A DNA stretch of 64,000 nt from Rhizophagus irregularis (taxonomy: Eukaryota): the NCBI RefSeq assembly GCF_026210795.1, contig NC_089435.1, forward strand, positions 1,736,001 to 1,800,000, given 5' to 3'. A program made the translations under genes and the position numbers. Shown here piece after piece: positions 9,111-35,451 of this stretch (its first letter is position 1; each line of letters starts with the position of its first letter). The notes beneath the pieces were generated by a model. That model ran no database searches, had not been told where the DNA came from, and was given only the letters and a program-made list of their open reading frames with translations.

Positions 9111-10194
9111 TGTAAACGGTCGAATATCAAGCATGAGAATATGATAAAATTCAATCACCAAATGTAATTGTCAAATATTAAGAACGAACAAACTAATTAT
9201 GAATTGGCGTGGATGGATAAATAATTAGCCGAAAAGGATAAACATTTAGAAAGAGTAATGATCTGCATGATGTAATATTTATTGAATGATTGACAAAGAA
9301 CCAATAGGATAAATAGAGTCGATCAATTGGGCTTAGCAATCTTTAACAATAAGAACGATAAGAAAGAATAATTATAAGCCACAAAAGATAGATTATAAGT
9401 AAAACACATAAAGCGGATTGAAAGAACATATAAAATAATGTCAGAAAGATTAAAGAACGTAAAATAATATAAAAGATAATATAAAAAGATAATACAAAGA
9501 TATTATAAAAGATAATATATATATATATAAGATAGCATATTAAAAGATAGCGTATTTAAAATATAGATAGTATATTAGGAAGATAGTTCAAAGATAATAT
9601 GTAAAAAGAACATAAAAGATAGTATATAGATAGAATAGAAAGTAGCGTAAAATTTGTATAAATAGAAAACGGAATTCAAAGTAATTCCATAGTTCTCATC
9701 CACAGAACTCAATAAAAATATAAGTTTTATTTAATTATTTGTTAATGAAGTTTAATGTTAATTAAAGGTAATAGGTTCGCCCTAAACTTTAATTAATGTT
9801 CGCTTAATTAATTTTAATTAAACAAATGAAAATTTTAAGATGAATTAAATATATGTTTTTGAAAAGTAATAATTCGTAGCGAGAGCTATCGAAGTTTGAA
9901 ATTAAAGGTAAAAGTGGATATAATTTGGGGACAATTTAGAGAAGTTAATTTTATTTTATATCGTTCAACGTTTTATATTACTAACGCTATTTATTTTGTG
10001 AACCAAGAATGTTGTTGTATGTTGTTCGTTAATTTTGTTGTTTGTTAATTATGTTGTTGAGTAATCGCTTGTTCATTTATTTGTTTGTTCGTTTGTTCGT
10101 TTGTTCATTTGTTCGTTCGTTCGTTCGACCATGAGAAAGCCCGTTCGATGTGGCAACTCTGTAAATTGATGACAGGGGGAATTGGGGGATCTCA
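9111..10194 (+). repeat. 3' LTR of Gypsy 1 (1084 bp, TG...CA), preceded by PPT GAAGGGGGGG
   Basis: Starts TGTAAACGG directly after the polypurine tract; last 606 bp match the window start. Confidence 0.93.
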
Positions 10195-11731
10195 ACGTGG
10201 AGGAATAGCTATGGCTGGACACCGTTTTCTAAAAGCCAATAACCCTAAGATGGGTGACTCTTTTAATCCCTCTAAACCTACTACCTGGATTTCCTATGTA
10301 GATGCAAACAATCTGTATGGATGGGCTATGAGCCAGTACTTACCTATTGGTAATTACAGATGGGAAGCATCTCCAGAATATTTCAAACAGAATCCAGATA
10401 AGCAGAAGCAGATACTTAATGTAATTCTTAATACAAAACCAGATGCTGCCCGTGGTTACTTCCTAAATATCAAAGCGCACTACCCCCTTAGGACTCATGA
10501 TTATCTACAAGATTTACCTCCTGCAGTTGATAGTATAGCTGTAAAAAAGGATAGGTTAAGCCCATATATAACCAAACTTGTTGATAACTTAGATGGAGGG
10601 CGATTTCCTGAAACAGAGAAGTTAGTTCCACATCTTGGTAAACATGAAGATTATGTCATACATTACCAAGAGCTCCAGTATTACATTAAGTTAGGCATGG
10701 TTGTAGATGAGATTACACAAGTCCTATCATTTGATCAAGATAACTGGTTAGCTCCTTATATTGCAAAAAATACAAATTTACGTCAACAATCCAAGAATTC
10801 ATTTGAGAAAGACTTCTTTAAACTCATGAATAACTCAGTCTATGGCAAGACTATGGAGAATGTACGTAAGTATCAGGATGTCAAGCTTATGAGAATGATC
10901 AATGAAAATGATGAGAAGAAATTCCTTAAGAAAGTTCGCAAGCCCTCCTTCAAGTATGCTCGTCAACTTGGCAACACACTTGTAGGAGCACATATGGGTA
11001 AGGCTAGTGTTATTCTCAATAAACCTATCATTATCGGTGCATCTGTCCTTGGTCTCAGTAAACTCTTAATGTACTGCTTCTGGTATGGTTTTGTCAAAGA
11101 GAAGTATGGAAACAAAGTACGACTTGGATATATGGATACTGACTCCTTTATCTACCATGTCGAGACAGAAGATATTTACAAGGATATGGCAGAGCGTCCA
11201 GATCTCTTTGACCTTAATGATACCAAGACTATCGGGCTTTTCAAGGATGAGACTCCTGGAAATGTAATTACTGAATCTTACCACATCCGTGCAAAATCCT
11301 ACCACTATGTCTTGGCAGACAAGTCTACAAAGTCCAAACATAAAGGAGTAAGCAAGAAGGGTATGAGTGATATGGCTAAGGACACATATTTCCCATCTTT
11401 AGGTGGAACTTTATTAGATGATACAGTAGAAAAAGATGAAATCTTCGATCCTATGACTCAAGTATATCGGGACTGTCTGTTTGAAAATAATATCTTCTAT
11501 GCCAAGAATGTGGGAATGTGTACAAAAAATCATGTAATATTCCTAATCGAGTCAGAGAAGAAGGCATTATCCCCAATCGATACAAAACGCTGGATTTGGT
11601 CAGATGGTATATCCTCCTTACCATTCGGACACTGGCGTATTCAAGTATATAAGAAACTTCTTGAGCGTGGCACAAGTCATGAGGCAGCAGAAAAAATAGC
11701 TATAGGAACCAGATTACCAGAGAAATATTAG
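10195..11731 (+). pseudogene. polB: Protein-primed family B DNA polymerase, C-terminal half (interrupted by Gypsy 1)
   Basis: RGG, YVDANNLYGWAM, KLMNNSVYGK, YMDTDS, KHKGV motifs; the first ~36 aa of the listed ORF come from the LTR. Confidence 0.93.
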
Positions 11732-11804
11732 AATGATATAGAATAGTTTAGTGATACTTAGGTATATATTAATAATAAATTATATTTTTTTCTCAGTAGT
11801 TAAA

Positions 11805-12074
11805 ATGGAAGACGATCCAATCTATGATATACATAGTAAAGAATATATCGATGACCTAGTGCATGTTACAATTCAGAGAGGTCTCTTTAAAGATGTAGAG
11901 GATGCAATAAAAAGTATAAAGGCATTAGCTAAAATGGTCATAAGTTCTAAGACTAGTATTGATGCATTTATGAAATGCCCTGTACCAAACATTCCAAATG
12001 CCTTTTATGACTTAGTAGAGGCATTTTATTATTCAATACTAAGAGAAAGACAATCATTAGCACATGACATCTAA
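11805..12074 (+). CDS. Hypothetical protein (element A)
   Basis: AAAATG start (MEDDPIY), 89-aa ORF tightly packed after polB. Confidence 0.55.
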   Translation: MEDDPIYDIHSKEYIDDLVHVTIQRGLFKDVEDAIKSIKALAKMVISSKTSIDAFMKCPVPNIPNAFYDLVEAFYYSILRERQSLAHDI

Positions 12075-12166
12075 CAGATTTCTGGGAGGTGTCATATGAT
12101 AAGATATTCTATGGAATTCTTCAGAATTCTTTGGAATTCCAAATTTTTTTTTCGTAATAAGAACTA

Positions 12167-12604
12167 ATGTCTTTCAACCAGGTATACACTGAACTACTAG
12201 TTATATTACCAGCTTCTGTAATACATGAGGCATGGATTCGTCTCACAACAAGGAAGCGCAGTCCACTATCTGTGTCTGATGCCAGTGGAGTAAATTCCAT
12301 GGTAGAGTTATTTTTGAAACATGAAGTAGAAAGATACCAGAAAAAATTAGCACGTCAGAGACTAACTGTTAAACAGACATATATGCCAAGAAACAGAATG
12401 ACACAAGACATGATTAGTGAAGAGGTTTCCATACTTCAGAAGCACTTGCTTGAATATAATAAAGTTACTTTTGGCCGATTCATGCAGAACCTTACTAAAG
12501 AACATGAGAAATTGATCAAGACAAATCATCAGATACGACATGAAATTGATACCATGAAGAAGCAAGTACGAGAAATAGAAAAAAAACTTGCTTCCATGTC
12601 GTAG
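12167..12604 (+). CDS. Hypothetical protein with C-terminal coiled coil (element A)
   Basis: 145-aa ORF with ATG start and heptad-like C-terminus. Confidence 0.6.
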   Translation: MSFNQVYTELLVILPASVIHEAWIRLTTRKRSPLSVSDASGVNSMVELFLKHEVERYQKKLARQRLTVKQTYMPRNRMTQDMISEEVSILQKHLLEYNKVTFGRFMQNLTKEHEKLIKTNHQIRHEIDTMKKQVREIEKKLASMS

Positions 12605-12659
12605 TTCCCATTATTCATCAAGAAATAGACGAATGGGTACTGTTGCTTCACTCAAATTT

Positions 12660-12790
12660 TGTGTGGACTGCGCATGGGATTTTTTTACTGTGCATAGACT
12701 TTGCATGGACTTTGCATGGGAAATTTTAACTGCACATGGGCTTTGCATGGGCTTTGCATGGGACTTTTTTACTGCACATGGATTTTTTTG
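12660..12790. repeat. Short imperfect tandem repeats (TTTGCATGGRC / ACTGCACATGG units)
   Basis: Recurring TGCATGG units between convergent genes. Confidence 0.7.
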
Positions 12791-12858
12791 TAAAAAATGT
12801 TGTCTAAGATTAGAAGGATATGGGAATTCCTTCCCACAATGCTGACAGGTACGATCAG

Positions 12859-13800
12859 CTAGTTTTTTTTTATAGGCTGGCTATCTACTGCAAAAACATT
12901 ACGTTGTGCCTTATGTACAGAGAGAGGAATTGAGACAACCTGTCCATTTACATTTGCTTTGAACTCACCCTTTACTACAGGTTCCCAACCTGCACGATAC
13001 TGCCACTGTGTACCAAGTATTAGCAATGATTTGTCCTTACCATTTCGATCCTTCTCGGTAGGTATAACAGAGAATTCGTCTGATATAGTGACTGTATTTG
13101 TACCTTCACCAATAGTTATAGGAATTTCATTGATAGTGCCAAGAGTTTTGGTTGATCCAGCTACACCATTAAGTGCATGTATATTCTTTCGATCTATTTT
13201 GAGACCTAGATGCTTAGCTACATTCTCAGAGATTACTGAAGAGTCAGACCCTGTATCGATCATAGCATAGGGTATGCATACATTTTTGATTTTACAGGAA
13301 ATGGTCGCTACATCATTGGGATCATCTAACTGGAGAAAGTTGATTTCTAAGGGTCTTGACCAGTATAGGTTTTTCTGCTGATAGGCACGTATTGCATGGT
13401 TCAGTGTTTTGTCTTCTTTCTGTTCTACTTCAGATGGTACATCTGCAGGAGAAGTTGGTAATAGTGGAGTTGCTGTATTTACAGCATGAGCTAGAGGAGA
13501 TAAAATGTCTTGCATATTTGCTGAAAAAACATCCCAGAGTTTCTTTCTTTCACTAACTGGATAGTCACTAACAAAATGGTTTAAAAGCGGGTCTTTCAGA
13601 TTCTCATATGCTTAATTGGTATAAGCATTAATCTGTAGGAGGATTTCTTTAGAACATTGTGCTGCTAGTGAAGCAATTATAGACTTCAGTGCTGCATGAA
13701 AGACTTCATCAGTTTTCTTGAGAATAGGTTCTCTTTTAGATTTGGAAGTACGGGATTTTTTCCCTTTGGTTTTTACCGAAACTCCACGTTGATGAGTTTT
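12859..13800 (-). pseudogene. Element A retropepsin-like aspartic protease in the -1 frame relative to gag
   Basis: AMIDTGSDSSVIS, GVAG flap, LILGTQW. The frame runs back to the A10 run at the gag end with one TAA (likely CAA>TAA). Confidence 0.88.
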
Positions 13801-15818
13801 TTTTTTACACTAAAGCAATTCTGAGGTTCATCCTCCTCCTCTTCTTCTTCAGCTAACTCTTCCTCAGTTTCTTCATCAGTTTCCTCATCACTTTCAGATT
13901 CTTCATAGTCAACTATGTGAGTATTGTTAACTTTCTTAGCACGTCTACTCTGTGGACACTTGTTCTTGGAATGACCTGTTCTACCACAGTTTGAGCAATG
14001 ACATTTAGGAGAAGATTTGGTTGTCTTTGTCACCTTTTTAACCTGACCAGTTCCGAAGTGATCTCTTCTTAGATGTTGTGTTTGTCCACCTAACTTTCTG
14101 GTAAGATCACTCTCAATGAAAGTATGTATTGCTACAGGATTTGTTATGTCACCAGTATAGCCAAGACGTACTGCTATATCTGCAAACTTTTCTAATGCAG
14201 TTCTATTCTGTGGTTGTTCTACTATAGTGGTTGGATTTTTTCACCCTCCACTTTCATACCATTTATTACGCAACTCATTAAAGAAAGCATCAAGATCAGC
14301 AGGAGCAGCAATTCTAATTCTCATTTCTAAAGCATCAGGCAAATGATTATATAGATAAGGTAAAATTTCAGCATATACTTGTCCTTGTGCTAATGATCGA
14401 ATTCTTTTTGCATATGTATCTGGTGTATCTATAGGAGAAAATGATTCATTCATGAGTGCTATTATAGCACCTTGATTTGTTCCAACCATCACATCTCTAT
14501 ATTTTCCTTGCAGCCAGTTTAGAAACTCTAGTTCTGTATTAATAGCAGCATTGCCATTATATGGATTATTTACTGGAACAGGAATAAATCTACCAGACAT
14601 TTTATTTTTCATGACATTGCACCTCATAGCAGCATTAAAACCAGCAAAAGCTAGTGGACGAGCCATCTCATTGACAGCTCTAAGCTTTTGATAATAAGAG
14701 TCTGGCGGCTCTTGTCCATCATAAAATGGTAACTGTGCAAGACCTGGTGATATAGTATGCATGACATCTTGTATTGTAGCCATGTTTGAAGGATTGTTTT
14801 GTAACGCTAATATTTGTTGTTGTAAATTTAAAATATTTTGGGCCTGTGCTTGTACCTGGGTCTGTGAAATCCTATATTGTCTTTGCCAGTTTTGTGCCTG
14901 ACGTATACAACCTGCATGCCTTCTTCTCCAACGTTCTGTATCAGCATTATAACGTAACATCAGCCTGTGTGCATTCCTTCGATGCTCAGCTATCTGATTC
15001 TGTTGGTTTGCCAGTTGTGCATCTTTGCGTCTATTTAGAAAACGTATACCTAGATTGGCTATTTGTATTCCTGCAATACGTGCTTGATTCTGTTGTGCAA
15101 CAGTTTCCCAGTGTCTACGAGCATTTCTCTCATATGTAAAATCATCACGTACTCTTATTAAGTCTTGATTAAGAGCATTTGTACGATCTAAAGATTCTCC
15201 AAGTAATGTCTGCAATCCTTCTATCTGATTTAGTTAGTCTACACCAATTTCTTGCATTAGAGCAGCTTGACGAATAATTTCATCAAGACTTTGAGTGGTA
15301 GCATTAAAGACATCATCTATGTCTTGTGGAATTGGAATCCTATTCCGATCAAAAAATAGTCTAATCTCAGACACACAATCTGCAACTGCCCATCGGCGGT
15401 CTAGTATTCTTAGAATAGGATTGAATAATTCATTATCTTCATCCATTTCTATCTTTCCTTTACATAAAGATAATTCTTGAATGCGTTTTTTGAGTTTATC
15501 CACTGTGTCTTCAAGCTGAATGATACGTTCATCCTGGGCAACAAGTGCCTCTTCCTTTAACTCTAAGTGATCTCGATACTTTCCAAGTTCAACTAAAGTG
15601 GACTGACACTCTGCCTTTAACTGATCGATCTCATCCTCACGTGAAACAAGATTTTTTTCAAGATAGAAGATATATCGTTCACATGCCTCTATCTCCTTTG
15701 TGAGTTTACGGATTTTCTCCTTATTGGAAATATTATTTGTTTCCTCTAATATCAGCTCTTTACGTAAAGCAAAGTTGCTATTTAGCAGATCAAGATATGC
15801 CGATTCAATACCCATCAA
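13773..15818 (-). pseudogene. Element A Gag-like polyprotein (coiled coil + capsid-like + CCHC knuckle), two premature stops
   Basis: ORFs 15234-15818, 14241-15215 and 13773-14033 share one frame, separated by TAA and TGA; motifs LPFYDGQEPPDSY, PDTYAKRI and CSNCGRTGHSKNKC. Confidence 0.8.
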
Positions 15819-15862
15819 TTCCTATTATTAAAATAGATTCTGATGAAGCATGAAATGTAGAG

Positions 15863-16906
15863 GTGACTTCGACTTTATGTAGAATATTTTATCAACCATC
15901 TGGATATCAGAGGACTGCCAAAAAATTGTATGAGACATCACAAAATGCTGGATATGATTTCACCTTAGATGAAGTGCAGGATTGGCTTGAAAGACAGGCA
16001 GTACATCAAGTTCACAAACCTCATCCCCGATTTATCCCTCGTGTAAGTTTTAGTTCTATACAAGTTCCCAATGAAGTTCATCAAGCTGACATTTTGTATA
16101 TGCCATATGACAAGGTTGGACATGTGACTTATCTTTTCTGTCTCAATATAGTTGATATAGCATCGAGGTATAAAGAAAGTGTCCCTATAGGTTCAACCAG
16201 TGTTAAAGATCGACAGGGAATCCTAACTTCTCATACTATTGCTTGGGCTTTTGAAAAGGTATATGATGATACAACATGTCCGCTCACTTGGCCAAAATTA
16301 TTGATTACAGATAGGGGTTCAGAGTTTAAAGGTGAGTGTGAAAAGTTGATGACTTCCCATGGTGTAAAGATTCAGAAGGCCAAGTCTAAGCGTACTGTTG
16401 GCATTGTGGAGCGATATAACCGTACCTTGGTTGAGAAACTATTTCCCTCTCAAGATGCATCTGACTTACTAACTTTAGGTAAAACGAGATCTCGAATCTG
16501 GGTAAAAAACTTGCCTATTGCTGTAGAAAGTATAAATAACTCAGTGACCCAACAACTTGGTATATCTTCTGTTGTAGCTATAAAAAAATCACGAGTGTCT
16601 TCCAGATCTTCTTATCCTCGTGATGGACCTGTTGGGTATGAAAAGGAGAAACTACCACCTGATATAAGTGTAAGGTACTTACTTGAACCAAATGATCTGG
16701 AAGGTGGAAGACGTCGAGCAGGAGATATGAATTGGTCACCTAAGATTTATTATATCCATATGTCTTTAACACAGAAAAATCAACCAGTTTTGTACTGGCT
16801 TATTGATGATGATGGTAAAGAATCAGAGAGATCCTTTGTGAGGGAAGAACTTTTGGTTATACCAGATGATACAGAACTTCCACCACAATGGGTACTTATG
16901 AATTAA
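15863..16906 (+). CDS. Polinton-type c-integrase (rve), element A; 5' end decayed
   Basis: HQADILYM, LITDRGSEF, VERYNRTL DDE core; N-terminal YQPSG..KLY..VQDWL as in Polinton integrases. Confidence 0.92.
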   Translation: MTSTLCRIFYQPSGYQRTAKKLYETSQNAGYDFTLDEVQDWLERQAVHQVHKPHPRFIPRVSFSSIQVPNEVHQADILYMPYDKVGHVTYLFCLNIVDIASRYKESVPIGSTSVKDRQGILTSHTIAWAFEKVYDDTTCPLTWPKLLITDRGSEFKGECEKLMTSHGVKIQKAKSKRTVGIVERYNRTLVEKLFPSQDASDLLTLGKTRSRIWVKNLPIAVESINNSVTQQLGISSVVAIKKSRVSSRSSYPRDGPVGYEKEKLPPDISVRYLLEPNDLEGGRRRAGDMNWSPKIYYIHMSLTQKNQPVLYWLIDDDGKESERSFVREELLVIPDDTELPPQWVLMN

Positions 16907-17273
16907 GATAGTCTTCTACCTCATCATCTGCTTGGGAGTCTGTGAGGAAGTAGTCTTTTGCCAATTCATAGTATAACCTGTATAGCTTATTAATAGCAGA
17001 CAAAAGTTTTGGCTCTCTGCTATACCAGGTCTTATAATTTTCCAAGATTTGCTGATACTTTGTCTCATTAGGTAGAATAGATTGTGCTGTTTCAAGAACA
17101 AAATTTTCTGGTTCTTCTGCTTGACGCAATTTGATTATCCTTTGTTTGTAACATAACATGAATTTACCATCCTTTGGTTTTTTGTAAAGGATGCCTGCTT
17201 TAATTACAGCAATTAGAGCTGATTCAATTTCACGGTATGTTGGCTTAGCTGGTATAGCTTGGGTAGACATCAT
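16896..17273 (-). CDS. Uncharacterised helical protein, homologous to element B ORF 26473-26943
   Basis: Aligns by eye with the element B protein along almost its full length. Confidence 0.75.
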   Translation of the reverse strand: MMSTQAIPAKPTYREIESALIAVIKAGILYKKPKDGKFMLCYKQRIIKLRQAEEPENFVLETAQSILPNETKYQQILENYKTWYSREPKLLSAINKLYRLYYELAKDYFLTDSQADDEVEDYLNS

Positions 17274-17325
17274 TTTTATATCATGTAAAGTTTTTTTTAA
17301 TTTAACTTATTTATACTTAATAAAA

Positions 17326-17562
17326 ATGATTGGAGAATATACTTGTGAATATTTACATAACACAGGAAAGCCTTGTGGTCGTCCTTGTGTGAGGCCAGAA
17401 GGTTGTCGCATTCATTGGAAGACAAAATCACGCTTTCCTTGTGCTGTATGTGGTAAACCTACAGGTTCATCTAGTGGTCGATGTCAATCTCATATTGGGA
17501 GTTACTATCAAAATCGGTATGAAAATAGGCTTCGTCAAAGAATCAGAGCAATTTATGATTAG
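17326..17562 (+). CDS. Small Cys/His-rich zinc-finger protein (element A)
   Basis: AAAAATG start; CEY..PCGRPC..GCRIH and CAVC..RCQSH. Confidence 0.65.
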   Translation: MIGEYTCEYLHNTGKPCGRPCVRPEGCRIHWKTKSRFPCAVCGKPTGSSSGRCQSHIGSYYQNRYENRLRQRIRAIYD

Positions 17563-17569
17563 GGTTAAA

Positions 17570-17998
17570 TTTTGGTTAGACTTCATTGTCTCAGATTTTT
17601 TCATATTGCAGGGGAAGCTTTACAATATGTCTAGTTGTCTTCCTGCTGTATATTTTTTGGTTAGACCTTGGACGGATTTTTGGTTAGACTTTTGGTTAGA
17701 CCTGTTGTCCCAGATTTTTTCGTATTGCAGAAAAAGCTTTACAATATATCTAGTTACCTTCCTGCTATACATTTTTTGGTTAGACCTGGGTTGGATTTTT
17801 GGTCAGACTTCGCTGTCCCAGATTTTTTCGTATAGGAGGAAAAGCTTTAAAACATATCTAGTTGCCTTCCTGCTATACATTTTTGGTTAGACCTGGGTTA
17901 GATTTTTGGTTAGACTTCGCTGTCCCAGATTTTTTCGTATAGCAGGAAAAGCTTTACAATATGTCTAGTTGCCTTCCTGTTAAAAATTTTTGGTTAGA
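17570..17998. repeat. ~107-bp tandem repeat, about 4 copies, subterminal in element A
   Basis: Repeated TTTTGGTTAGAC..CTGTCCCAGATTTTTTCGTAT..AAGCTTTACAATATGTCTAGTT..TTCCTG. Confidence 0.9.
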
Positions 17999-18953
17999 GC
18001 ATAAATGGCTTAAATCATCGAATGAATCCATTTTAGAGTATCATAAAAATAGTATGCCACAATGGATTGCTGAATCGTGCCATCGGTATTACAGACACTT
18101 CGTGTCCTTCATACCTTTGGCACTTATAAAGGCAATCTGATATAGCATAAAATTATAATACCCTGGAATGGATCCATGCGTGGTAATAATGCCTAGGAAT
18201 ATATGATTTTAATCTTATCTACAACACTTGGGGGTTCTTTTTTAGCTATCAAGTATTAACATATCGGGAATCAAGGTTAGGTGGTCTGGGGATAGAAAAA
18301 CAGGTATAGTGTTATCATATCAGAAAACAAGGCTAGGTGGTCTGGGGGTACACTAAATTATGGTTAGACCTATGTGATAGCCGCTGTCCCAGAACCCCCA
18401 AGTTTGCCCTACTACTGATATTACTTCTAATGTACAGGATTAAAGAAGATTTATACTTCACAAATTTTTATAATTGTAAAGAATAATTGTAAAATAAAGG
18501 TATCATAATAGATTCTGCATTCCAAAGCTTTAACTTCATCTGTCAATATAATATGTAGTTAATGAAATAACAAAGCAAAGCCATATTTACTGGCTAGTAT
18601 TATAGTATGTTATTATTCTAATTAATGGACAAATAAATATTTTTCTATCTTGTTTGGGGAATAAAAAATTCAGAAGGAGCAATAAAATAATAGTATATTT
18701 TTTTATATATACTATGACTATCTTAACTTTAGTTATTGATGTTGAAATATTGTGGATAAGCAAATAAAAAAGGAATATGTTGTTTAAAAGAAGTAATTGT
18801 CCAATTATATTAAAAAGAAGTAAATATTTATTTAGTTTGAAATTTCAATCATAACATCAAAATTTGTTTTATATGATTAGTTAAATAATTACTGGATCGA
18901 GTTGTAAATCTTTTTAAAGTTGAGGTTTGAATTGGGTAAATAGTTGCCTAATT

Positions 18954-21006: not shown

Positions 21007-21488
21007 GTCGTCGGGCTGGTAGTGTGCCTCGCTAGCGCTCACCCCACCTCGGCCAGAGCCTCGCAGTACCTACATCCCCCTCCGTGGGGCAGGGAACCCC
21101 CCATAGATCCTCCACAATTCTCCACATAGATCCTCCACAAAAATATATAACAAAAAAGGATAAAATAAGGGAAAAGAGAGGAAAATAAGAGGGAATCGGA
21201 GAAGTGTGGAGGATGTGGAGGATGTGGAGGACGTTTTAAAAAAATCGGGAGAGGGATCCCCCCAGAAAAAAGTTTTGATTTTACCCCCCAGATCCTCCAC
21301 ATCTTCCACATCTTCCACACGTACAGGATTCCATTCATTTTCCTATTGGAAGCAATGAGATAGCAAACCAGGTAAGTTATTAGCAGGTAAGTCCCTAGAA
21401 GGCCTGTAGAGCCATAGAGATATAACCGGGTAGGAGCGCGGATCTTTGGAAAAAATATATTCGGCAATTGAAGATTAGGTAACTATAA
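21007..21488 (+). repeat. Left TIR of element B
   Basis: Reverse complement of 35452-35933; by eye 1 substitution and 2 compensating homopolymer indels. Confidence 0.97.
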
Positions 21489-21517
21489 ATTAGTACTCGA
21501 TTTGATAGAACGAAAAA

Positions 21518-23863
21518 ATGACCACTCAAGCTCAAGTTATCCCTAAGTTCGGTGAACAAAAGAAAGCCTTCAGTATCGATGAGCTTAAACGGCTTATTGT
21601 CGCTGCAAAGAGTATGAGTGACCTCGATCAAGCCAAGAGGTATCTTTGCAGTTATTTCATTCCCTGTGCAGATCCTCATGGGGTTTTCTGGTGGGACCCG
21701 GATAGTAAAAGTTTGAAACACGTTATTGACAAAAATATTGGTAAACTTATCCGTCCAATCACGAAGGCATTCTACACACAACCTGAACAAGGACCCTCTC
21801 AAAAGACCGAGTTCAACATCTACAAGTGGTTTATGGTCGAGAATACCGATGTATGTAATGCAACCTGTGATCCCCATAAACAGCGAATCTTCAGATCCTT
21901 AACTGGCCAACTCTATCTAAATATCTTCCCGGGATTCCTCCACGTCTTGCGTCCAATATCCACCTTTGAGTCTACAATCCACCTCGCGGTTAAATTTATC
22001 TTTTCTCATATTCGGGATATCTGGTGTTCAGGCGATTGGAATCTTACTGAGTATATCATTAAGTGGTTGGCCGGTGTATCTGCTGGAAGGAAGATGTACT
22101 CGATTCTTTACCTGAAATCTGGACAGGGTTGGGGCAAAGGTATTATAACAGATTTCATTCAGCGCAGCGTCCTAGGCACTCAACTCGTTTATAAGACCAG
22201 CGATCCTCGGACGATTCTTGGAAGTTTTAATGGGCAATTACAGGGTAAGGTTCTTCTTCTTCTCGAGGAAATGCCCACGGAAAAAAGCCAGTGGAATAAT
22301 CTGTATCGCTCTTTGAAGGATAAGGTAACGAGTGACATAATGGAAATCCATGAAAAATACAAGACACCAACACATTATAAAAACTTTATGTCCACTATCG
22401 TCCTAACCAACGAAAATGCTCTCAGAGTGGAGAATGACGATAGGCGCACAGTGTTCTTGGATGTGTCACCATCCCGCAAGGGAGACCTCAACTACTTCAA
22501 AAGACTCAGTGACGCTATGAAATACCCAGGCGCCAGTGAGGCGTTCTATGCTTACTTGAGAGCCATCGCAGACACTTACCCGGACTTCAATGGAAATCCA
22601 CCACCTATGACAACATCCAAACAGGAACATATCATCTCGACTCTTCCACCCCTATTTCAGTTTATAAAGGATACATACCTCGTAATGAAAAATTATATGA
22701 CCGACCTACCTATTCAAGAATTTTATAGGGTATATACTTCATACTGTGAAACTCATGGCATTACACCCTTATCAAAGATAAACGCTTCTAGAATCCTATC
22801 AAATGAGCTAAGTATAAAAAGTAAAAAAATGCGTATAGGTAAAACAACACCACAAGTTTACAGTATATCCAGGGAGGATCTATACAAGAAGTTTCTCGGC
22901 AAAAACTGGATCCACGAAACAGACGAGATAGACATAGAAGGAATTGATATAGAGACTTCTAAGAAACCCGCATCAGACCCCAAAGCCTTGGAAAAGTTCT
23001 TGGCAAATATATATAATCCAGCTAACAATCCACAAGACGTACAAGAGAAACCCACTGAGAAAAAACCCGAACCCGCTGAGGAAAAACCCACTGAGAAAAA
23101 ACCCGAACCCGCTGAGGAAAAACCCGCTGAGAAAAAACCCGAGCCAGATAACTACGACGTTTTAGATGACTTGCTATCTGACTCAGATTTTACAACTGTG
23201 AACCCAGCTCCTGAACAACAACCCGAGTCTCCCGCAGAATCTTCTGCATCTGTCACTAAGCCTGACCCAGAACCGGCTTCTGAAGAGCAATTTATCCCAG
23301 AACCCGACACAGAACCAGAAGTTGACCGGGATCCTGAACCAAAGGAAGGCACTCGAGCGCACTGGGCTTGGCAAGAAAGACACCGATGGGATCGCAAACC
23401 ATGGGTTAAAAATTTAAAGGACCAGGTCTTCAATGATCTCTACAATACAGGTAAGGAATTATGGGCCAAGTACCAAGATGCGTCAGACGAATATGACTGG
23501 GAAATACTCGCGTTTGAAATAGAGGAATGTCCCACAACGCGTATTGAGGACGAGTACCAGTACTACCTTATGGAGGTAGTAGACCGCTTCAAGGACTGGA
23601 TTGAATATAATGGATACTTACCTAAAATACCTAGCCGTAAAGAACTCGCAGATTTAATAAGAATATACAAGGAGAATCGTAATGCCGAGATTATTCCCAC
23701 CCCCTCTGGTTATGAAACTATGAGGGCAGATAAGGGTAAAGCGCGAGAGATCCCCGAGGAACGTCCAAAAACTGATATGGAACGTGAATGGGAGGCCGCC
23801 AATGGAATCATCGATGACTGGGACGAAGAGGATACTGAGGGCGCTATCAACGACATATTGTAA
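21518..23863 (+). CDS. SF3 (D5-like) helicase with winged-helix region and acidic repetitive tail
   Basis: SGQGWGKG (Walker A), LLLEE (Walker B), IVLTN (motif C), DDRR; EEKPTEKKPEPA repeats. Confidence 0.85.
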   Translation: MTTQAQVIPKFGEQKKAFSIDELKRLIVAAKSMSDLDQAKRYLCSYFIPCADPHGVFWWDPDSKSLKHVIDKNIGKLIRPITKAFYTQPEQGPSQKTEFNIYKWFMVENTDVCNATCDPHKQRIFRSLTGQLYLNIFPGFLHVLRPISTFESTIHLAVKFIFSHIRDIWCSGDWNLTEYIIKWLAGVSAGRKMYSILYLKSGQGWGKGIITDFIQRSVLGTQLVYKTSDPRTILGSFNGQLQGKVLLLLEEMPTEKSQWNNLYRSLKDKVTSDIMEIHEKYKTPTHYKNFMSTIVLTNENALRVENDDRRTVFLDVSPSRKGDLNYFKRLSDAMKYPGASEAFYAYLRAIADTYPDFNGNPPPMTTSKQEHIISTLPPLFQFIKDTYLVMKNYMTDLPIQEFYRVYTSYCETHGITPLSKINASRILSNELSIKSKKMRIGKTTPQVYSISREDLYKKFLGKNWIHETDEIDIEGIDIETSKKPASDPKALEKFLANIYNPANNPQDVQEKPTEKKPEPAEEKPTEKKPEPAEEKPAEKKPEPDNYDVLDDLLSDSDFTTVNPAPEQQPESPAESSASVTKPDPEPASEEQFIPEPDTEPEVDRDPEPKEGTRAHWAWQERHRWDRKPWVKNLKDQVFNDLYNTGKELWAKYQDASDEYDWEILAFEIEECPTTRIEDEYQYYLMEVVDRFKDWIEYNGYLPKIPSRKELADLIRIYKENRNAEIIPTPSGYETMRADKGKAREIPEERPKTDMEREWEAANGIIDDWDEEDTEGAINDIL

Positions 23864-23948
23864 GCGCTATTTGAGATTATTTCTTTTTTTTTTCGTATAT
23901 ATATAGAAAGATATTATTTATAGTTGAAGACAAATCATATACATAAAA

Positions 23949-25802
23949 ATGCAATACTCAAGAATTGCCCGCACTTTACCAACACGACCTGACATCAAGG
24001 AACTTCAGTATTCCGGTGCTCGCTTTTCCAGAGGAGCTATCGCCAGACTCGGTCAGACTCTCCAGACGCGATTTCCAGATAGAAAGTTCCAGATCCTACT
24101 TCCCTATGAAAACTGGAAACCCGGTGGATGGACATCAGGAAACCAACCAGCCAGCCTCTTTTCACTATTAGACCATTATGATGAAGCACAACTACCGGAT
24201 GACGCAGACCCTGATTATTTTGAACGATTCATAATTTATGCAAGAGATAGTCCACCGGCCGCAGGAGGATGCAATGGGGAGCTAAATGATTGCCTGTATG
24301 AATGCCTAAAAAATATTTACGGCACATTCTCTAAAATGCCAAAGTCAATCGAAAAGCCCGAGTATATCAAAAAGGCATTAGGTCTCAATCGCGATGCTCC
24401 CATCCCAGTTTCATGCATGGACAAGGTTGAACAACTCGCAGGAAGTCTCGCAATTAATATTGTGGGGGACATTACCCGAATCTCTAAGAGTAAGTCCGAT
24501 AGACGTGCGACTCTCATCCTATCAGAAGGCCATTACTCCCTCACGTTAAATCCTGGAAGACTCCACCCCAGTAAAATAGATAAAAAGCGTAATTTACCCA
24601 TTGTATACCATGAAGATGGGACCAATAATGTAGTCACAATATACAACGGCAAAACAGTTAAGTCTTGCACAATTGCGCAGTTTCAAAAAACTAAGAATTC
24701 CAAAAGTTCTTTCATCCCCGTCGAGAAAAACCGTAAGACTGGAGTATATGAAACTCTTGAAGAAGCATATCAGAGAATCCACGAGGAGCGGAATTCCTTT
24801 CTACAGGAGACAAAGAAGTTCGGTTTAGGAATCGACTTATCATACCATAACTGGTCTTACAAAAGAACGGCTCTCTGGTTATTCGAACGATTAAGTGTAG
24901 GAATTCCAGCCAATGATCCTCTTGACCCGATAGAAGCGGAGTGGTTAAGTGATGCAATGATGGGAGGATTAATCTGGGCAGATAACGAGTGGAAAGGCTA
25001 TGGAAGACAGTATGACGCAACAAGTTTATACCCGAGTATCCAACAATCAAACGTGAACTTTCCAATCAGACGGGGTAAATTCCAGACACTTAATGACTTT
25101 GTCGACCACAGGGGTTATGCCTTGTATGGATTATTCCGTGCCAAAATAAGTGGGAATAATATTCTCTTCCGACAGAATAAAAGGGGAATCTATACATTCA
25201 TCGACTTACAACGAGCAAAAAAACTTGGTCTCAATATACAGTTAATACAGGATGGGAAGCCAAATGCATTGATATATGATAGAGAAGCGAGAATCCCTGG
25301 AACTGTAATATTCGGTGAGTATGTACACTTCCTCTTCAAAATTAAAAACCAGGGTGGCATAGCTGGCCGCGTGGCAAAGCGAGTCCTCAACACATTATGG
25401 GGAGCATTATGCCAGAGGAAGCGTAATTACAAGACACTCACCACAGATCAAACAGACCCATTTACATTTCCAGAGGGCCATACACTCGACTCTATCATAC
25501 CAGTAGGATCTGACCAGTGGCGATTCCAGTTTACAAACCCGGGTAATCCCTTCAAAGGTGAGTATCCCAGGATCGCCCCATTCTTATTAGCACGTGGTCG
25601 CAAAATCACATCTGAGGCAATTCAACCATACAAGGATAAAGTACGACGTATCCATACAGACGGATTTATTTTAGAAGAACAGCCAGATAGCCCCGCGCTT
25701 TTCACTTGTTCAGAGAATGCAGATACGACTCTAAAGACTTTCAAGTTTGAAACCGCGGGATACTGCCATGTGAAAAATGCGAACAAGGTTATCTGGACAT
25801 GA
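23949..25802 (+). CDS. polB: Compact protein-primed-type family B DNA polymerase with putative OTU-like N-terminal domain
   Basis: GG, YDATSLYPS, KRVLNTLWG, IHTDG; NDCLYECL...GHY upstream. Confidence 0.85.
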   Translation: MQYSRIARTLPTRPDIKELQYSGARFSRGAIARLGQTLQTRFPDRKFQILLPYENWKPGGWTSGNQPASLFSLLDHYDEAQLPDDADPDYFERFIIYARDSPPAAGGCNGELNDCLYECLKNIYGTFSKMPKSIEKPEYIKKALGLNRDAPIPVSCMDKVEQLAGSLAINIVGDITRISKSKSDRRATLILSEGHYSLTLNPGRLHPSKIDKKRNLPIVYHEDGTNNVVTIYNGKTVKSCTIAQFQKTKNSKSSFIPVEKNRKTGVYETLEEAYQRIHEERNSFLQETKKFGLGIDLSYHNWSYKRTALWLFERLSVGIPANDPLDPIEAEWLSDAMMGGLIWADNEWKGYGRQYDATSLYPSIQQSNVNFPIRRGKFQTLNDFVDHRGYALYGLFRAKISGNNILFRQNKRGIYTFIDLQRAKKLGLNIQLIQDGKPNALIYDREARIPGTVIFGEYVHFLFKIKNQGGIAGRVAKRVLNTLWGALCQRKRNYKTLTTDQTDPFTFPEGHTLDSIIPVGSDQWRFQFTNPGNPFKGEYPRIAPFLLARGRKITSEAIQPYKDKVRRIHTDGFILEEQPDSPALFTCSENADTTLKTFKFETAGYCHVKNANKVIWT

Positions 25803-25865
25803 TTGCTAGGGACCGGTATGTATATTTTTTACTGACATATCGTGATGGCATAATTGAATAAACCT

Positions 25866-26390
25866 ATGGGATATGTAATCTTACGAGATACCCAAATGCA
25901 AAACACCGACGGATTAGGTAGACAAGACGACGAAAGTTTCCACGTGTGGGCTAAGCGCATTCAGAATGCTGTGCAATATTATGAGACTTGTAGTAGAATA
26001 GGTTTTCATAGGCGGCTACCTTATCCAAGGTCTCGTCAAGCTGTATATGCTTATATTGTGCACATTAGGAGAATAGTATCACGACTACCAAATAGGTGGT
26101 ACTGTACCTACTGTAAATCTTTTATTGATCGCGGATGGGGAGCTGACGCTTTCATGGATCAAGCGGTGCGACTACATTTATATAGTTGCCCAAAGCATTT
26201 TAATTTCGACTATTATACTCATCATGCTGAAATGATCCAGAATGCCTTTAGGAGATATATAGAAAGAAGGAACAATAAAGCGGCTAGGATAATCCAGAAA
26301 GTCGCTATCCCCTGGTTATATAGACCAGGCTCTCCATTGATGCAAAAGGCCGAGCGACGCTTCTACTGTCTTGCAGTATCCCAAGTGTAA
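25866..26390 (+). CDS. Hypothetical protein with Zn-finger-like and IQ-like motifs (start uncertain)
   Basis: CTYC..HLYSC; IQNAFRRY and ARIIQK..W. Confidence 0.65.
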   Translation: MGYVILRDTQMQNTDGLGRQDDESFHVWAKRIQNAVQYYETCSRIGFHRRLPYPRSRQAVYAYIVHIRRIVSRLPNRWYCTYCKSFIDRGWGADAFMDQAVRLHLYSCPKHFNFDYYTHHAEMIQNAFRRYIERRNNKAARIIQKVAIPWLYRPGSPLMQKAERRFYCLAVSQV

Positions 26391-26472
26391 ACCCCGAGGT
26401 TCATATTTATTTTTTCTCATTCGAATGAACAGGTAACTGAAGATTTATATTTTTTACAAAGTACAAAGAATC

Positions 26473-26943
26473 ATGTCAACATATACCGAATTCGCAAGCA
26501 TTGTTAACAGCACTGACAGCACTAGTGAGGAGGTTATTTACGAGGCATCGCGCATTCAGCCTAATGTTGTCTCTGACGAAACTGTCCCCAAGATTATCCG
26601 CGCATTAAAAGATACTATAGTAATCGCATTAGTATCTGGGTTTAGCAAAACCAGTTACCTCGTCCAGGACCACGTGAAGTATATCAAGCGAATCCAAACG
26701 GCAAATTCTCCTGTATCATATGTGAAGTTCGTGGCCAGAAAACTCTTCCCAGATAATGCGGCATATACTGCTAAAATAGCAAAAATCCGCGAATCATACA
26801 AGAATAAACAAGCTCTCCTAGATAAGCTTGAGGCCCTCTTCGAATTGTATTATAATGCGACTAAGGACTCATCAACCGGTCCCCCAAAGCGAGCTATTAC
26901 TAAAAACGAGGCTGAGAAAACCTTAACAGAACTTCTTGCATAA
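26473..26943 (+). CDS. Uncharacterised helical protein, homologous to element A ORF 16896-17273
   Basis: 156-aa ORF with upstream AACTGAAGAT motif; similar to the element A protein. Confidence 0.8.
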   Translation: MSTYTEFASIVNSTDSTSEEVIYEASRIQPNVVSDETVPKIIRALKDTIVIALVSGFSKTSYLVQDHVKYIKRIQTANSPVSYVKFVARKLFPDNAAYTAKIAKIRESYKNKQALLDKLEALFELYYNATKDSSTGPPKRAITKNEAEKTLTELLA

Positions 26944-27052
26944 GCGGCTCCTGTGGTCCTACGATTCTGTACGAATTTAGTCTATATTTTTTATCCATGT
27001 GTAATAGGCATACAGTAATTGAAGATAGCTATAGTATAAGTAACATAACATC

Positions 27053-27457
27053 ATGTTGGACCGATTACCAGTAGAAATAGTCGAACGCATTGTCGCAAAG
27101 ATCCCGGATACTGACCTTATTGCAGCGAGTAAGGTAGATAGAGTGTGGTGGCAGGAAGTTCGTCGAGAGGCATATAAGAGGTGGAAAAATTATGCCACTA
27201 CGATCGGGGATGTGTACTGTGAAATCCGAGCTCTCGGAAAGCATTATATAAAGAGGGAAATTGACTGGATAACGTTTGAAGATGTAAACGACTTCTATAA
27301 AAGATGGATAGACCGCCTCACCGAGGATCAGCTTTATATTATGGAGAAAATGCTTAGGAATGGGATGGTCGTGGACCCCCAAGAGAGGGAAACCATAGAG
27401 CATGCATTAAGTGAACAAAGATGGGGAGGCGATCCTTGGAGACTGGGAGTGGTATGA
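27053..27457 (+). CDS. F-box protein
   Basis: N-terminal LDRLPVEIVERIV...L...SKVDRVW matches the F-box consensus. Confidence 0.8.
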   Translation: MLDRLPVEIVERIVAKIPDTDLIAASKVDRVWWQEVRREAYKRWKNYATTIGDVYCEIRALGKHYIKREIDWITFEDVNDFYKRWIDRLTEDQLYIMEKMLRNGMVVDPQERETIEHALSEQRWGGDPWRLGVV

Positions 27458-27796
27458 ATGGACTCAACAGGAGTAAGCATTTTGTACTTGACTTTCGTAG
27501 GAATTACCCTGCAGAGTCATATTTTTTAGATCCGGCCGGCATTACCGCGTAATCCCGAATTACCGAAAAAGGAAATTTATGTTACACAAGATTCCAAACG
27601 CATTTTTACCAAAATCGATTTTTTGTGGAACGGGTATCGCCCAAAAAGGAAATGATCTACGTACCACATGAAGTCACGTGACACTCTACACATTTGTTCA
27701 GGGTATCACGTGACATGAACTCCGTTCACATTTTCTGTAATATAATCCATAGTTTTTTCATGAATGCTTTTTAGGCCAATAATCCAATAACTTATT

Positions 27797-27946
27797 CATC
27801 AGGTATCCTCGTGTTTTGCGACAAGGACTGATGACCATGTAACCTCATCATCAGGCATCCTCACATTTTTTGACAAGGACTGATGACCATGTAACCTCAT
27901 CATCAGGCATCCTCGCATTTTTTGACAAGGACTGATGACGATGTCA
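27797..27946. repeat. 52-bp tandem repeat x~3 with internal dyad symmetry
   Basis: Units start at 27797, 27849 and 27901; CATCAG..TCCT pairs with AGGA.CTGATG. Confidence 0.92.
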
Positions 27947-28005
27947 CTTGGTTATTGTAAATTGAAGATAACAATTAGGTATGTAGACACGTACAGAAAA
28001 AAGAC

Positions 28006-28590
28006 ATGTCATACCCTTATATAACTAATCCTATAACCGGACGTCCAATCCGTGTTGGTGGAGATACCTTTAATCGAATAGTTATGGAATCCCATGATTA
28101 TATCGATGGAAGGCTTGTCCGTAGACAAACCGTACCGCCTCCACCCCAGGAACAACCTGTATATTTAAATACAGATACAGGACGCTATATTCAACACGGT
28201 ACTAGAACGTATCATAGACTGGTTGAGAGTGACTACGAGGTAGTTGAGGACTACTACCTTGTTCATTCTGAAGAGGAGGAGCTTATAGAGGAAATCATCA
28301 ATGAAACACGCTATAATGAGGAAAATCTTGATGGCCAGCGGTTAACTTTCAATAATGTACAACAAATCAGAGCCGCTATTCAAGCTGACCAAGATGAATA
28401 TGATGATTTTATCTTACAGCAGAATACGACTAACGGGACACCTTCCTCCGGTCCTTCCGGTCGTCCACGAACTTTGGAGGACCATGCCCCGAGACTTGCA
28501 GAGCTTAATATTGAGTTGTGTAGGGAATGTCTCATGCCTGTAAGCCCAAGTGACTTAACGGACAAGTTGTGCAAGGACTGCGCTTCCTAA
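28006..28590 (+). CDS. Hypothetical protein with duplicated N(P)xTGRxI motif and C-terminal Zn ribbon
   Basis: NPITGRPIRVGG and NTDTGRYIQHG; CREC...CKDC. Confidence 0.75.
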   Translation: MSYPYITNPITGRPIRVGGDTFNRIVMESHDYIDGRLVRRQTVPPPPQEQPVYLNTDTGRYIQHGTRTYHRLVESDYEVVEDYYLVHSEEEELIEEIINETRYNEENLDGQRLTFNNVQQIRAAIQADQDEYDDFILQQNTTNGTPSSGPSGRPRTLEDHAPRLAELNIELCRECLMPVSPSDLTDKLCKDCAS

Positions 28591-28750
28591 TGGTCAGTCC
28601 TCCGGTCCTCTGGTCTTCCGGTCTTTCCAACGGTTGATCCCTTAATGCCAGTTATTTTTTTTTATACAAATGACAGGTATTTAAAGATAACAATATATAA
28701 AAAAGATTGTGAAGGATACTAAGTGAGCGAATAATCAAAGAAAGATAGCC

Positions 28751-29302
28751 ATGTCAACATCAATCGTAATAAACCAGTGTCAGAACTGTGGAGTATTCTC
28801 TGCAAAAGCGGCATATAGAGGATTATCCAGCGTGTTGTATAGACAGATTATAAAGAAGATTGGTGACGAGAGTGAACCTTTACAAGCCTTGGGACTTGCC
28901 AGGGATAAGTTGGTCCAGATTATCCGTCGGGCAAGTAATGCGGATTTTACACAATTATTCACACAAAGACTAGATATGAAAATTATGGACGGAGATTCAT
29001 ACGAGGATACTAGGAAGTGGCTTCTTGAACAGCTTATAGCCATTGGATGTGACAGTGGGGAAATTGCCTTATATCAGTTCTTACGGAATACATACCCGGA
29101 TGGTATTGACGAACCCTTTACTACATTCTATGAGAACTATGTAAATCATGTAAGAAATCCGATGACTAAGAACTTTGCTTCTCGAGCCTTAGGAGCTATT
29201 GGATTAAAAGCTAGGATGCTACGGATTGACTTCGAAGGACGTAAAAAAAGCGCCATGATTCTTAGGGCTTCTGCGGAAGAACTTCGCGAGATGGGTTGCT
29301 AA
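28751..29302 (+). CDS. Protein resembling the helicase C-terminal winged-helix region
   Basis: LYQFLRNTY..FYENY..PMTKNFASRAL versus helicase LFQFIKDTY..FYRVY..PLSKINASRIL. Confidence 0.75.
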   Translation: MSTSIVINQCQNCGVFSAKAAYRGLSSVLYRQIIKKIGDESEPLQALGLARDKLVQIIRRASNADFTQLFTQRLDMKIMDGDSYEDTRKWLLEQLIAIGCDSGEIALYQFLRNTYPDGIDEPFTTFYENYVNHVRNPMTKNFASRALGAIGLKARMLRIDFEGRKKSAMILRASAEELREMGC

Positions 29303-29315
29303 AGCAACCAGATTC

Positions 29316-30506: not shown

Positions 30507-30534
30507 TTGAATTTTATTCTAATTTAGTTTAAAT

Positions 30535-33445: not shown

Positions 33446-33459
33446 GGAATATTTATTTT

Positions 33460-34551: not shown

Positions 34552-34595
34552 ATTACGACAAATTAAAGGAAAGATTTCGGACTTCAAATCTTAAA

Positions 34596-34916: not shown

Positions 34917-34925
34917 TACCGCCTT

Positions 34926-35441: not shown

Positions 35442-35451
35442 TGTATGTTAC

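What the first reader, a model, noticed from the sequence alone, without database searches (positions are those of the whole stretch)
10195..18416. A second, divergent Polinton-like element carries the same Gag-Pro module
Element A has a different PolB type (DANNLYG/NSVYGK/DTDS versus DATSLYP/NTLWG/HTDG), an integrase with no chromodomain and a different gene order. It still encodes coiled coil + Gag + CCHC knuckle followed by a -1-frame DTG protease, packed head-to-head against the integrase with <50 bp between them. Two distant elements with this module suggest a family trait, not a one-off retrotransposon insertion.
Basis: partly seen in the sequence, partly recalled or inferred. Interest (0 to 1): 0.88.

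Follow-up and report, generated by a model that had tools for sequence, protein, structure and literature searches.

The report
Polinton with a retroviral-type capsid
A virus-like DNA transposon of a root-symbiont fungus has its own DNA polymerase and integrase but no sign of the usual Polinton shell genes; instead it and its relatives keep a gene predicted to fold as a retroviral capsid, plus a retroviral-type protease, so it likely builds retrovirus-like particles without any reverse transcriptase.

Summary
Element A (10195-18413) is the right ~8 kb of a multi-copy Polinton of an arbuscular mycorrhizal fungus, cut inside PolB by a Gypsy insertion. This copy is dead: four premature stops. Its Gag models confidently as a retroelement capsid (best matches PEG10, copia, Arc), followed by a CCHC knuckle and a -1-frame retropepsin. 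In 34 soil-metagenome relatives the cassette sits head-to-head with the integrase (10 of 10 with enough flank), never beside a reverse transcriptase, and is under purifying selection. Homologs occur in seven glomeromycete genera. New details: a second conserved -1 shift leads from protease into a C2H2 finger, and integrase and Gag start codons often share one CATG. A left TIR is seen indirectly; the inferred full length (~12.0 kb) matches Polinton-1_GI, published as lacking capsid, penton, ATPase and protease. 'Same module' is only partly right: element B's Gag has no detectable sequence likeness to A's and no knuckle, but the proteases are related and one bridge protein exists. The element class is known and Gag/retropepsin labels appear in one figure legend and one supplement; a capsid swap as a family trait was not found described. 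Particles are untested.

The parts
9111..10194 (+). 3' LTR of Gypsy 1; the retrotransposon interrupts element A inside PolB (not part of A)
   Evidence: LTR copies 1-606 and 9589-10194 are 98% identical; a contig of another run continues 628 nt left of 10194 without the LTR (X8 record 25)
10195..11731 (+). C-terminal 511 codons of a family B DNA polymerase, Polinton type; intact relatives are ~1390 aa with an endonuclease VII insert
   Evidence: motifs; 86% to L001 PolB, 1413-codon ORF, PF02945 E 9.7e-7; weak match to DNA polymerases of 13-14 kb Bacillus records, E 2e-3; no PF03175 hit
11805..12074 (+). small ORF, unknown, absent from L001
   Evidence: no family
12167..12604 (+). small coiled-coil ORF, unknown; homologs in L007 and L010
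12611..12880 (-). C2H2 zinc finger plus 42-nt repeats, no ATG before the finger, -1 frame to the protease
   Evidence: PF00096 E 7.5e-5; -1 and ATG-less in 6 of 7 loci with the finger, and in the window; repeats
12863..12871 (-). second A-run (A9) just before the protease stop; predicted -1 slip site
12859..13809 (-). protease ORF (-1 frame to Gag): ~140-aa linker then retropepsin with DTG; premature stop at 13612-13614 in this copy
   Evidence: other copies read a different base at 13614 in 4 of 4 runs; 93% to the open ORF of L001
13797..13806 (-). first A-run (A10); predicted -1 slip site between Gag and protease
   Evidence: -1 in 13 of 15 loci and the window; short-read contigs cross it without a gap (X14 record 12, X8 record 27)
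13773..15815 (-). Gag, 680 codons: long coiled coil, capsid domain (14244-14789), CCHC knuckle, acidic tail; two premature stops in this copy
   Evidence: model pLDDT 90.4; 31 top structural matches are all retroelement or retroviral capsids; open 695-codon ORF in L001
15797..16906 (+). DDE integrase, no chromodomain; start overlaps the Gag start; premature stop at 15851-15853 in this copy
   Evidence: PF00665 E 1.5e-6, below the curated cut-off; D79, D153, E186 invariant in 9 of 9 rows
16896..17306 (-). small conserved ORF, weakly related to an ORF of element B (26437-26943)
   Evidence: homologs in L003, L005, L010; E 1.6e-4 to B's ORF
17326..17562 (+). small Cys/His-rich ORF running into the TIR
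   Evidence: 57% homolog in L003
17502..18413 (.). right terminal inverted repeat, ~912 bp, with 107-bp tandem units; terminus 5'-AGTAGGGC on the minus strand
   Evidence: one identical alternative sequence joins at 17502 in 4 of 4 runs, and different flanks follow 18413/18414 in 3 runs; tandem units
21007..35933 (.). element B, the comparison element: complete, 483-bp TIRs, 5-bp TSD, inserted in Gypsy 2 gag; helicase, PF03175 PolB, A32 ATPase, coiled coil, Gag, -1 protease, chromo-integrase, DUF5679; no ORF left for a jelly-roll capsid
   Evidence: Gag C-terminal part matches PEG10 capsid domain (model poor overall, pLDDT 42)

Best explanation
Element A is a decayed copy of a Polinton family of arbuscular mycorrhizal fungi that carries a conserved Gag-protease cassette and shows no jelly-roll capsid, and the cassette likely serves as the element's replacement virion, building a retrovirus-like particle around its own DNA. 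Shown: polymerase, integrase, TIR, multiple insertion sites, capsid fold by prediction, knuckle, protease, two conserved frame offsets at A-runs, purifying selection, no RT. Inferred: Gag is made in bulk; slippage at the first A-run gives a minority Gag-protease and at the second a rarer Gag-protease-zinc finger; the capsid domain assembles, the knuckle and basic tract bind nucleic acid and the protease matures the shell. Inferred, weaker: because A appears to lack a packaging ATPase, the shell would co-assemble around a flexible single strand displaced by protein-primed synthesis (closed by the 912-bp TIRs), with PolB completing the duplex inside, in the role RT has in retroelements, and the integrase inserting it; in a fungus with many nuclei in one cytoplasm this would shelter the DNA and carry it between nuclei and fused hyphae. 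The overlapping divergent starts of Gag and integrase would couple or alternate their expression.
For: Fold: (PEG10 Z 11.2, rmsd 2.2, 80 aa; copia capsomer Z 9.4, rmsd 7.1, 150 aa). Linkage: (integrase 10 of 10, protease 13 of 13, PolB in 3 of the 6 loci with >=300 nt past the protease, RT 0 of 34). No RT, RNase H or Gypsy integrase match in 452 fetched proteins. Selection. Frameshifts. Spread: named homologs in Rhizophagus, Glomus, Diversispora, Acaulospora, Gigaspora, Cetraspora, Entrophospora. Loss of the normal virion module: no unassigned ORF over ~150 aa in the window part or in L001; Polinton-1_GI listed without MCP, penton, ATPase, protease. In 358 mavirus-related elements retropepsin_like co-occurs with PolB 57 times, with RT_LTR 5 times and with MCP once. 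A full maturation set (capsid + knuckle + protease at a fixed ratio) is what particle-forming retroelements keep (established knowledge).
Against: No particle, protein or transcript was observed. The left end is off the window; ~0.2 kb between TIR and PolB is assumed from a different subfamily. Structural scores are modest (Foldseek best E 0.033; Atlas shared features 136 of 256, below the same-family range) and Pfam finds no Gag family in A. A shared fold shows no function: domesticated capsid genes act as restriction factors or RNA carriers. Element B keeps an A32 packaging ATPase and has lost the knuckle, so the two families may not work alike. Retro-type capsids are known to assemble on RNA, not DNA (recalled). 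A-runs could slip during transcription rather than translation.
Confidence: 0.6

Rival explanations
1. The cassette is useful cargo but not the element's virion: a dominant-negative or decoy capsid against the host's abundant Gypsy elements (as Ty1-derived Drt2/p22), or a nucleic-acid chaperone or integration-targeting protein; the element moves as a naked DNA transposon.
For: Both elements in this window are entangled with Gypsy elements. A Ty1-derived restriction factor is among the fold matches (9rxy). Capsid-less Polintons exist without any shell genes.
Against: A decoy needs neither an active-site protease nor a conserved frameshift, yet the protease is the most constrained part (dN/dS 0.07-0.18). 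The capsid shows no sequence likeness to the window's Gypsy Gags, which a co-assembling decoy would need.
Confidence: 0.2
2. The particle is real but packages RNA: element transcripts are carried between nuclei, or are copied by a Gypsy reverse transcriptase in trans.
For: CCHC knuckles and retro capsids normally package RNA (established). Gypsy RT is plentiful in this genome.
Against: Ends are TIRs, not LTRs; genes lie on both strands so no single transcript is the genome; PolB is intact and constrained in relatives (dN/dS 0.11-0.13).
Confidence: 0.15
3. Gag-Pro is the remnant of one or two recent Gypsy insertions that happen to sit in Polintons.
For: Gypsy elements do insert into these elements (Gypsy 1 in A's PolB). 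The protease tree does not reject grouping B with a window Gypsy (p-AU 0.146).
Against: Same position and orientation in 9 distinct sequence clusters, down to ~54% capsid identity; no LTR, RT or same-strand integrase; purifying selection; protease ends in its own stop or a zinc finger.
Confidence: 0.03

Closest known systems
Polinton-1_GI / P_Gi1.1 of Glomus (Rhizophagus) intraradices, 11,954 bp (PMC4028283, Table S1 read in full)
   Same: Same host group; listed with no MCP, penton, ATPase or cysteine protease; my inferred length of A is 11,783 nt plus a ~0.2-kb spacer.
   Different: The paper's main text has no 'gag', 'Glomus' or 'fung' and treats such elements as having lost morphogenesis genes; here a different capsid module is present.
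pMVRE group 1 fungal lineage (PMC13215967; section 7, passages, supplements 3 part 1 and 5 by search)
   Same: Element B has the listed hallmarks (PF03175 PolB, DUF5906, DUF5679, chromodomain, rve) and the paper lists Glomeromycota elements; its supplement records retropepsin_like with PolB 57 times and Retrotrans_gag 8 times.
   Different: The paper calls the lineage free of viral structural proteins and 'likely plasmids'; 'gag' and 'retro' occur 0 times in its main text. Element A has another polymerase, no helicase seen and no chromodomain.
Unnamed 'related element' in Fig. 5 of Starrett et al. 2021 (PMC8502044; sections 7 and 10, passages; figure not visible)
   Same: [quoted passage not shown] 3 legend. 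A's PolB fits their Beta class in missing PF03175.
   Different: No sentence in the sections read discusses it; host and family are not stated in the text held; no family-wide conservation, frameshifts or fold test.
Ty3/Gypsy and other LTR retroelements; beta- and deltaretroviral gag-pro-pol
   Same: Capsid fold, CCHC knuckle, retropepsin, -1 frame offsets; two successive -1 shifts as in MMTV or HTLV (recalled).
   Different: No RT, RNase H, LTR; third frame is a C2H2 finger; integrase on the opposite strand and far from Gypsy integrases; replication enzyme is a DNA polymerase.
Ngaro retrotransposons inside endogenous mavirus-like elements (PMC8547959, passages)
   Same: Gag-like ORF found within a pPolB element.
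   Different: Those are whole passenger retrotransposons with RT and their own repeats at varied sites, not a fixed core gene.
Caulimoviridae (recalled)
   Same: Retro-type coat protein with knuckle and aspartic protease enclosing DNA.
   Different: They make that DNA by reverse transcription and have no integrase or PolB.

Membership tests
Polinton/Maverick transposon (capsid-less type included) | family B DNA polymerase with Polinton-type motifs | tested here: met
Polinton/Maverick transposon (capsid-less type included) | protein priming (terminal-protein and vOTU domains) | not tested
   PolB was not folded; no Pfam or PDB sequence match to these domains
Polinton/Maverick transposon (capsid-less type included) | retroviral-like DDE integrase | tested here: met
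   broken by a stop in this copy, open in relatives
Polinton/Maverick transposon (capsid-less type included) | long TIRs with AGT-type ends, multiple insertion sites | tested here: met
   right end direct; left TIR indirect from one shared junction in 4 of 4 runs; several flanks
Polinton/Maverick transposon (capsid-less type included) | 5-6 bp target-site duplication | not testable with these tools
   left end lies outside the window; no genome held. Element B has a 5-bp TSD
Polintoviruses (Polintoviricetes, jelly-roll virion) | double jelly-roll MCP, penton, Ulp1 protease, packaging ATPase | tested here: not met
   no unassigned ORF over ~150 aa in 10195-18413 or in L001 from PolB start to integrase; the stretch between left TIR and PolB was not seen
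Retroelement Gag-Pro module | two-domain retroviral capsid fold | tested here: met
   (prediction, not a solved structure)
Retroelement Gag-Pro module | CCHC knuckle and D-T/S-G retropepsin in a shifted frame | tested here: met
   (zf-CCHC in 12 of 45 aligned homologs)
Retroelement Gag-Pro module | particle assembly and proteolytic maturation | not testable with these tools
   needs bench work
Ty3/Gypsy LTR retrotransposon | RT-RNase H and same-strand integrase after the protease | tested here: not met
   0 of 34 loci, 0 of 452 proteins, 0 of 120 listed protease homologs with an RT Pfam label
Ty3/Gypsy LTR retrotransposon | LTRs around gag-pro | tested here: not met
   no such direct repeat
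pMVRE group 1 (mavirus-related) | PF03175-type PolB with DUF5906 helicase | tested here: not met
   for element A; met for element B

The most novel reading that the evidence does not exclude
Glomeromycete fungi host a cross-realm chimeric virus: two unrelated DNA-polymerase lineages (Polinton-type A, mavirus-type B) have swapped the jelly-roll virion for a retroviral Gag-protease shell from one ancient capture, and replicate and travel as DNA inside a retro-type capsid with PolB in the place of reverse transcriptase and a zinc finger in the place of pol.
Probability: 0.4. Interest if true: 0.93.

Novelty: new variant of a known kind. Interest (0 to 1): 0.76.

Why it matters
Retroviral-type capsids are tied to reverse transcription in every mobile element I know of, and Polintons are tied to jelly-roll capsids. 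A stable, selected swap between the two would be a new route of virus origin, would reclassify fungal Polintons now filed as capsid-less or plasmid-like, and offers a testable vehicle for DNA movement among the many nuclei of a major plant symbiont in which Mavericks are recently expanded (PMC8647823, PMC11952901, passages). It also makes a direct experiment possible: can a retro capsid package DNA made without RT?

Tried and rejected
No whole genome was held, so the left end could not be read. Scans of viral contigs with Gag, PolB and integrase and of prokaryote genomes found nothing. The 30-nt left-TIR junction is not in L001 or the window. Direct homology of A and B capsid domains: BLASTP and hhalign negative. 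PDB sequence searches gave only coiled-coil noise or nothing. A weak RT_RNaseH label on 3 of 45 homologs was checked on 18 of them: the one found lies in the coiled coil, below cut-off; rejected. No consistent stimulatory RNA structure after the first A-run (minimum energies -2 to -14 kcal/mol, no shuffle control). Decay is mostly G:C to A:T but not CpG-focused (5 of 23 listed sites). Integrase and capsid trees are too poorly resolved to show co-divergence. Expression could not be judged: all runs laid were contigs and the RNA label of X17 is a guess. A capsid self-association prediction was not obtained, and a second-method fold search for B's Gag was not obtained. Searches of earlier scan notes gave nothing relevant.
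Full report
Setting. The window holds two nested pairs. Gypsy 1 (3' LTR 9111-10194) sits inside the polymerase gene of element A; element B (21007-35933, 483-bp TIRs 99.4% alike, 5-bp duplication) sits inside the gag of Gypsy 2. The nearest named proteins are 95-99% identical and come from Rhizophagus irregularis, so the host is inferred to be an arbuscular mycorrhizal fungus of that kind. No whole genome was held.

Observation. This copy is dead: stops at 15234-36 and 14241-43 (Gag), 13612-14 (protease ORF) and 15851-53 (integrase). At 15236 and 13614 all four runs laid show another base, and locus L001 has open Gag (695 codons), protease, integrase and a 1413-codon PolB frame, so the stops are private decay. 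A contig of run X8 runs 628 nt left of 10194 without the LTR, confirming that the Gypsy is a later insertion.

Is it a Gag? Pfam gives no Gag family for A. An AlphaFold2 model of the 182-aa domain from a 45-row alignment has mean pLDDT 90.4. Against 48,161 solved chains the first 31 rows are all retroviral or retroelement capsids: PEG10 C-terminal domain Z 11.2 (rmsd 2.2, 80 aa), copia capsomer Z 9.4 (rmsd 7.1, 150 aa), Arc, Ty1-derived Drt2, MLV. Foldseek ranks HIV-1 CA first but with E 0.033. The ESM Atlas gives Retrotrans_gag clusters at 0.94, with 136 of 256 features shared, which points to a distant relative. B's model is poor (pLDDT 42) but its C-terminal part matches PEG10 (probability 1.0, E 0.12) and the Atlas agrees.

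Is it a family trait? A metagenome scan gave 34 loci (76 pattern matches, 35 confirmed), 27 clusters after merging near-copies. The A-type integrase lies head-to-head with Gag in 10 of 10 loci with at least 1300 nt upstream (11 of 34 in all, 9 clusters); the protease follows in 13 of 13 loci with at least 900 nt downstream; PolB lies tail-to-tail in 3 of the 6 loci that reach 300 nt past the protease; none of 34 matches the window's Gypsy RTs. None of 452 fetched proteins matches Gypsy RT, RNase H or integrase, and none of the 120 listed protease homologs of 304-2000 aa carries an RT label (many rows have no precomputed labels, and the word-based search is not exhaustive). Named homologs come from Rhizophagus, Glomus, Diversispora, Acaulospora, Gigaspora, Cetraspora and Entrophospora; their genomic context was not seen except for one Entrophospora gene model that joins Gag to a PolB piece. 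dN/dS over six pairs is 0.19-0.32 for the capsid and 0.07-0.18 for the protease, against 0.13-0.39 for integrase and 0.11-0.13 for PolB (several dS values are near saturation).

Expression logic. Gag and protease are offset by -1 at an A-run in the window and 13 of 15 loci (11 clusters); of the two exceptions L015 is broken and L002 was measured across a longer span. Short-read contigs cross the site without a gap, so it is not an assembly slip. B has an A9 run at the same junction. Two successive -1 shifts recall gag-pro-pol of MMTV and HTLV (recalled), with a zinc finger where RT would be. The integrase and Gag start codons share one CATG in 7 of 11 loci, overlap by 19 nt in 2 loci and the window, and are 33-37 nt apart in 2; each promoter must then lie inside the other gene (inference).

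Ends and the unseen left part. In 4 of 4 runs one identical foreign sequence joins at 17502, and depth rises from there, which is what the inner edge of a second, left TIR of ~912 bp would give; different flanks follow 18413-18414 in three runs, showing several insertion sites. Adding the visible 8219 nt, the 2652-nt PolB front part of L001 and one TIR gives 11,783 nt; L001 has 220 nt more before the PolB start. Polinton-1_GI of the same fungus is listed at 11,954 bp with no MCP, penton, ATPase or protease (PMC4028283 Table S1). The match suggests A is that family and has no room for virion genes; it is a size argument that borrows from another subfamily, not a sequence identification.

Same module as B? 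Only in part. The capsid domains do not match by BLASTP or profile, and B lacks the knuckle. The proteases match (24-25%, E 4e-12) better than either matches the two window Gypsy proteases. In a 24-row tree (10 of 34 extracted rows left out as mis-cut, partial or near-identical) A and B types form one side against the two Gypsies at 86/89, with intermediates from Glomus and Gigaspora, but grouping B with Gypsy 1 is not rejected (p-AU 0.146); two outgroups are too few. One R. irregularis gene model, P0265, has an A-type coiled-coil half (42% over 310 aa to P0053), a B-type capsid and a knuckle. A and B also share a weakly similar small ORF and integrases with similar C-terminal motifs. One old capture followed by shuffling is favoured, not shown.

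Mechanism. Shown: the parts, their linkage, constraint and frame offsets. Inferred (0.6): the cassette is the element's virion. Capsid, knuckle and a ratio-controlled protease are kept together where particles mature, and the jelly-roll module appears absent. The weakest step is the cargo. With no ATPase in A, co-assembly on a displaced single DNA strand, finished inside by PolB, is my preferred route; B, which keeps an A32 ATPase (PF04665), may differ. Rivals: defensive or chaperone cargo (0.2), RNA cargo (0.15), Gypsy remnant (0.03).

What is in print. Ten searches found no paper that describes a Gag-protease cassette as a core feature of Polintons. Partial prior art exists. [quoted passage not shown] 5 legend without discussion in sections 7 and 10; the figure is not held and the supplement, cut at 4 million characters, had no hit. 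PMC13215967 covers B-like elements, calls the fungal lineage free of structural proteins, yet tabulates retropepsin_like with PolB 57 times, with RT_LTR 5 times and with MCP once; its file mmc1.docx could not be read. A 2026 preprint notes fungal A32 ATPases only (passages). PMC11952901 and PMC8647823 report Maverick expansion in these fungi without gene content (passages). An HNH insert in Polinton polymerases is described for nematode and oomycete pPolB2 (10.1101/2023.08.22.554363, passages and section 8); whether A's endonuclease VII insert is the same was not tested. The defining Polinton gene set is taken from passages of PMC11161782. Kapitonov and Jurka 2006, Pritham 2007 and the Repbase entry were not available and may annotate these genes.

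Verdict. A real, conserved and largely unremarked chimera: a known capsid-less Polinton type that turns out to carry a retro-type capsid module across glomeromycete fungi. New variant of a known kind; interest 0.76; categorically new if DNA-filled particles are shown.

Noticed in passing
window 5627-7747 (+), residues ~485-643: Gypsy 1 pol carries a P-loop, thymidylate-kinase-like domain between RNase H and integrase (PF02223 E 4e-4).
   Followed up: no
window 30523-32726 (+): In element B the coiled-coil ORF and the capsid ORF are in different frames, the capsid ATG lying just before the coiled-coil stop; database gene models of divergent B copies splice across the same point, so the break may be a conserved feature.
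   Followed up: partly
window 29316-30518 (-): Element B keeps an A32-type packaging ATPase with Walker motifs although it has no jelly-roll capsid ORF.
   Followed up: no
window versus L001; L003 versus L006: Synonymous distance is lower for Gag (0.28-0.30) than for integrase and PolB (0.71-0.73) between the window and L001, hinting at module exchange between subfamilies.
   Followed up: partly
L010 5881-6141: The variable middle region of a relative holds a small ubiquitin/Crinkler-N-like ORF.
   Followed up: no
protein P0406: A 66%-identical A-type protease is labelled as from a Mycoplasmataceae endobacterium MAG; contamination or transfer; not found in the prokaryote genome collection.
   Followed up: partly
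window 27044-27457 and 27979-28590 (+): Element B carries an F-box-like ORF and a 2-cysteine adaptor ORF.
   Followed up: no
window 49033-50505 (+): Tyrosine-kinase-like host gene split by an in-frame stop or intron.
   Followed up: no
window 42368-42595, 62329-62547, 61942-62625: Two short inverted-repeat elements and a ~105-bp tandem array in AT-rich host DNA.
   Followed up: no
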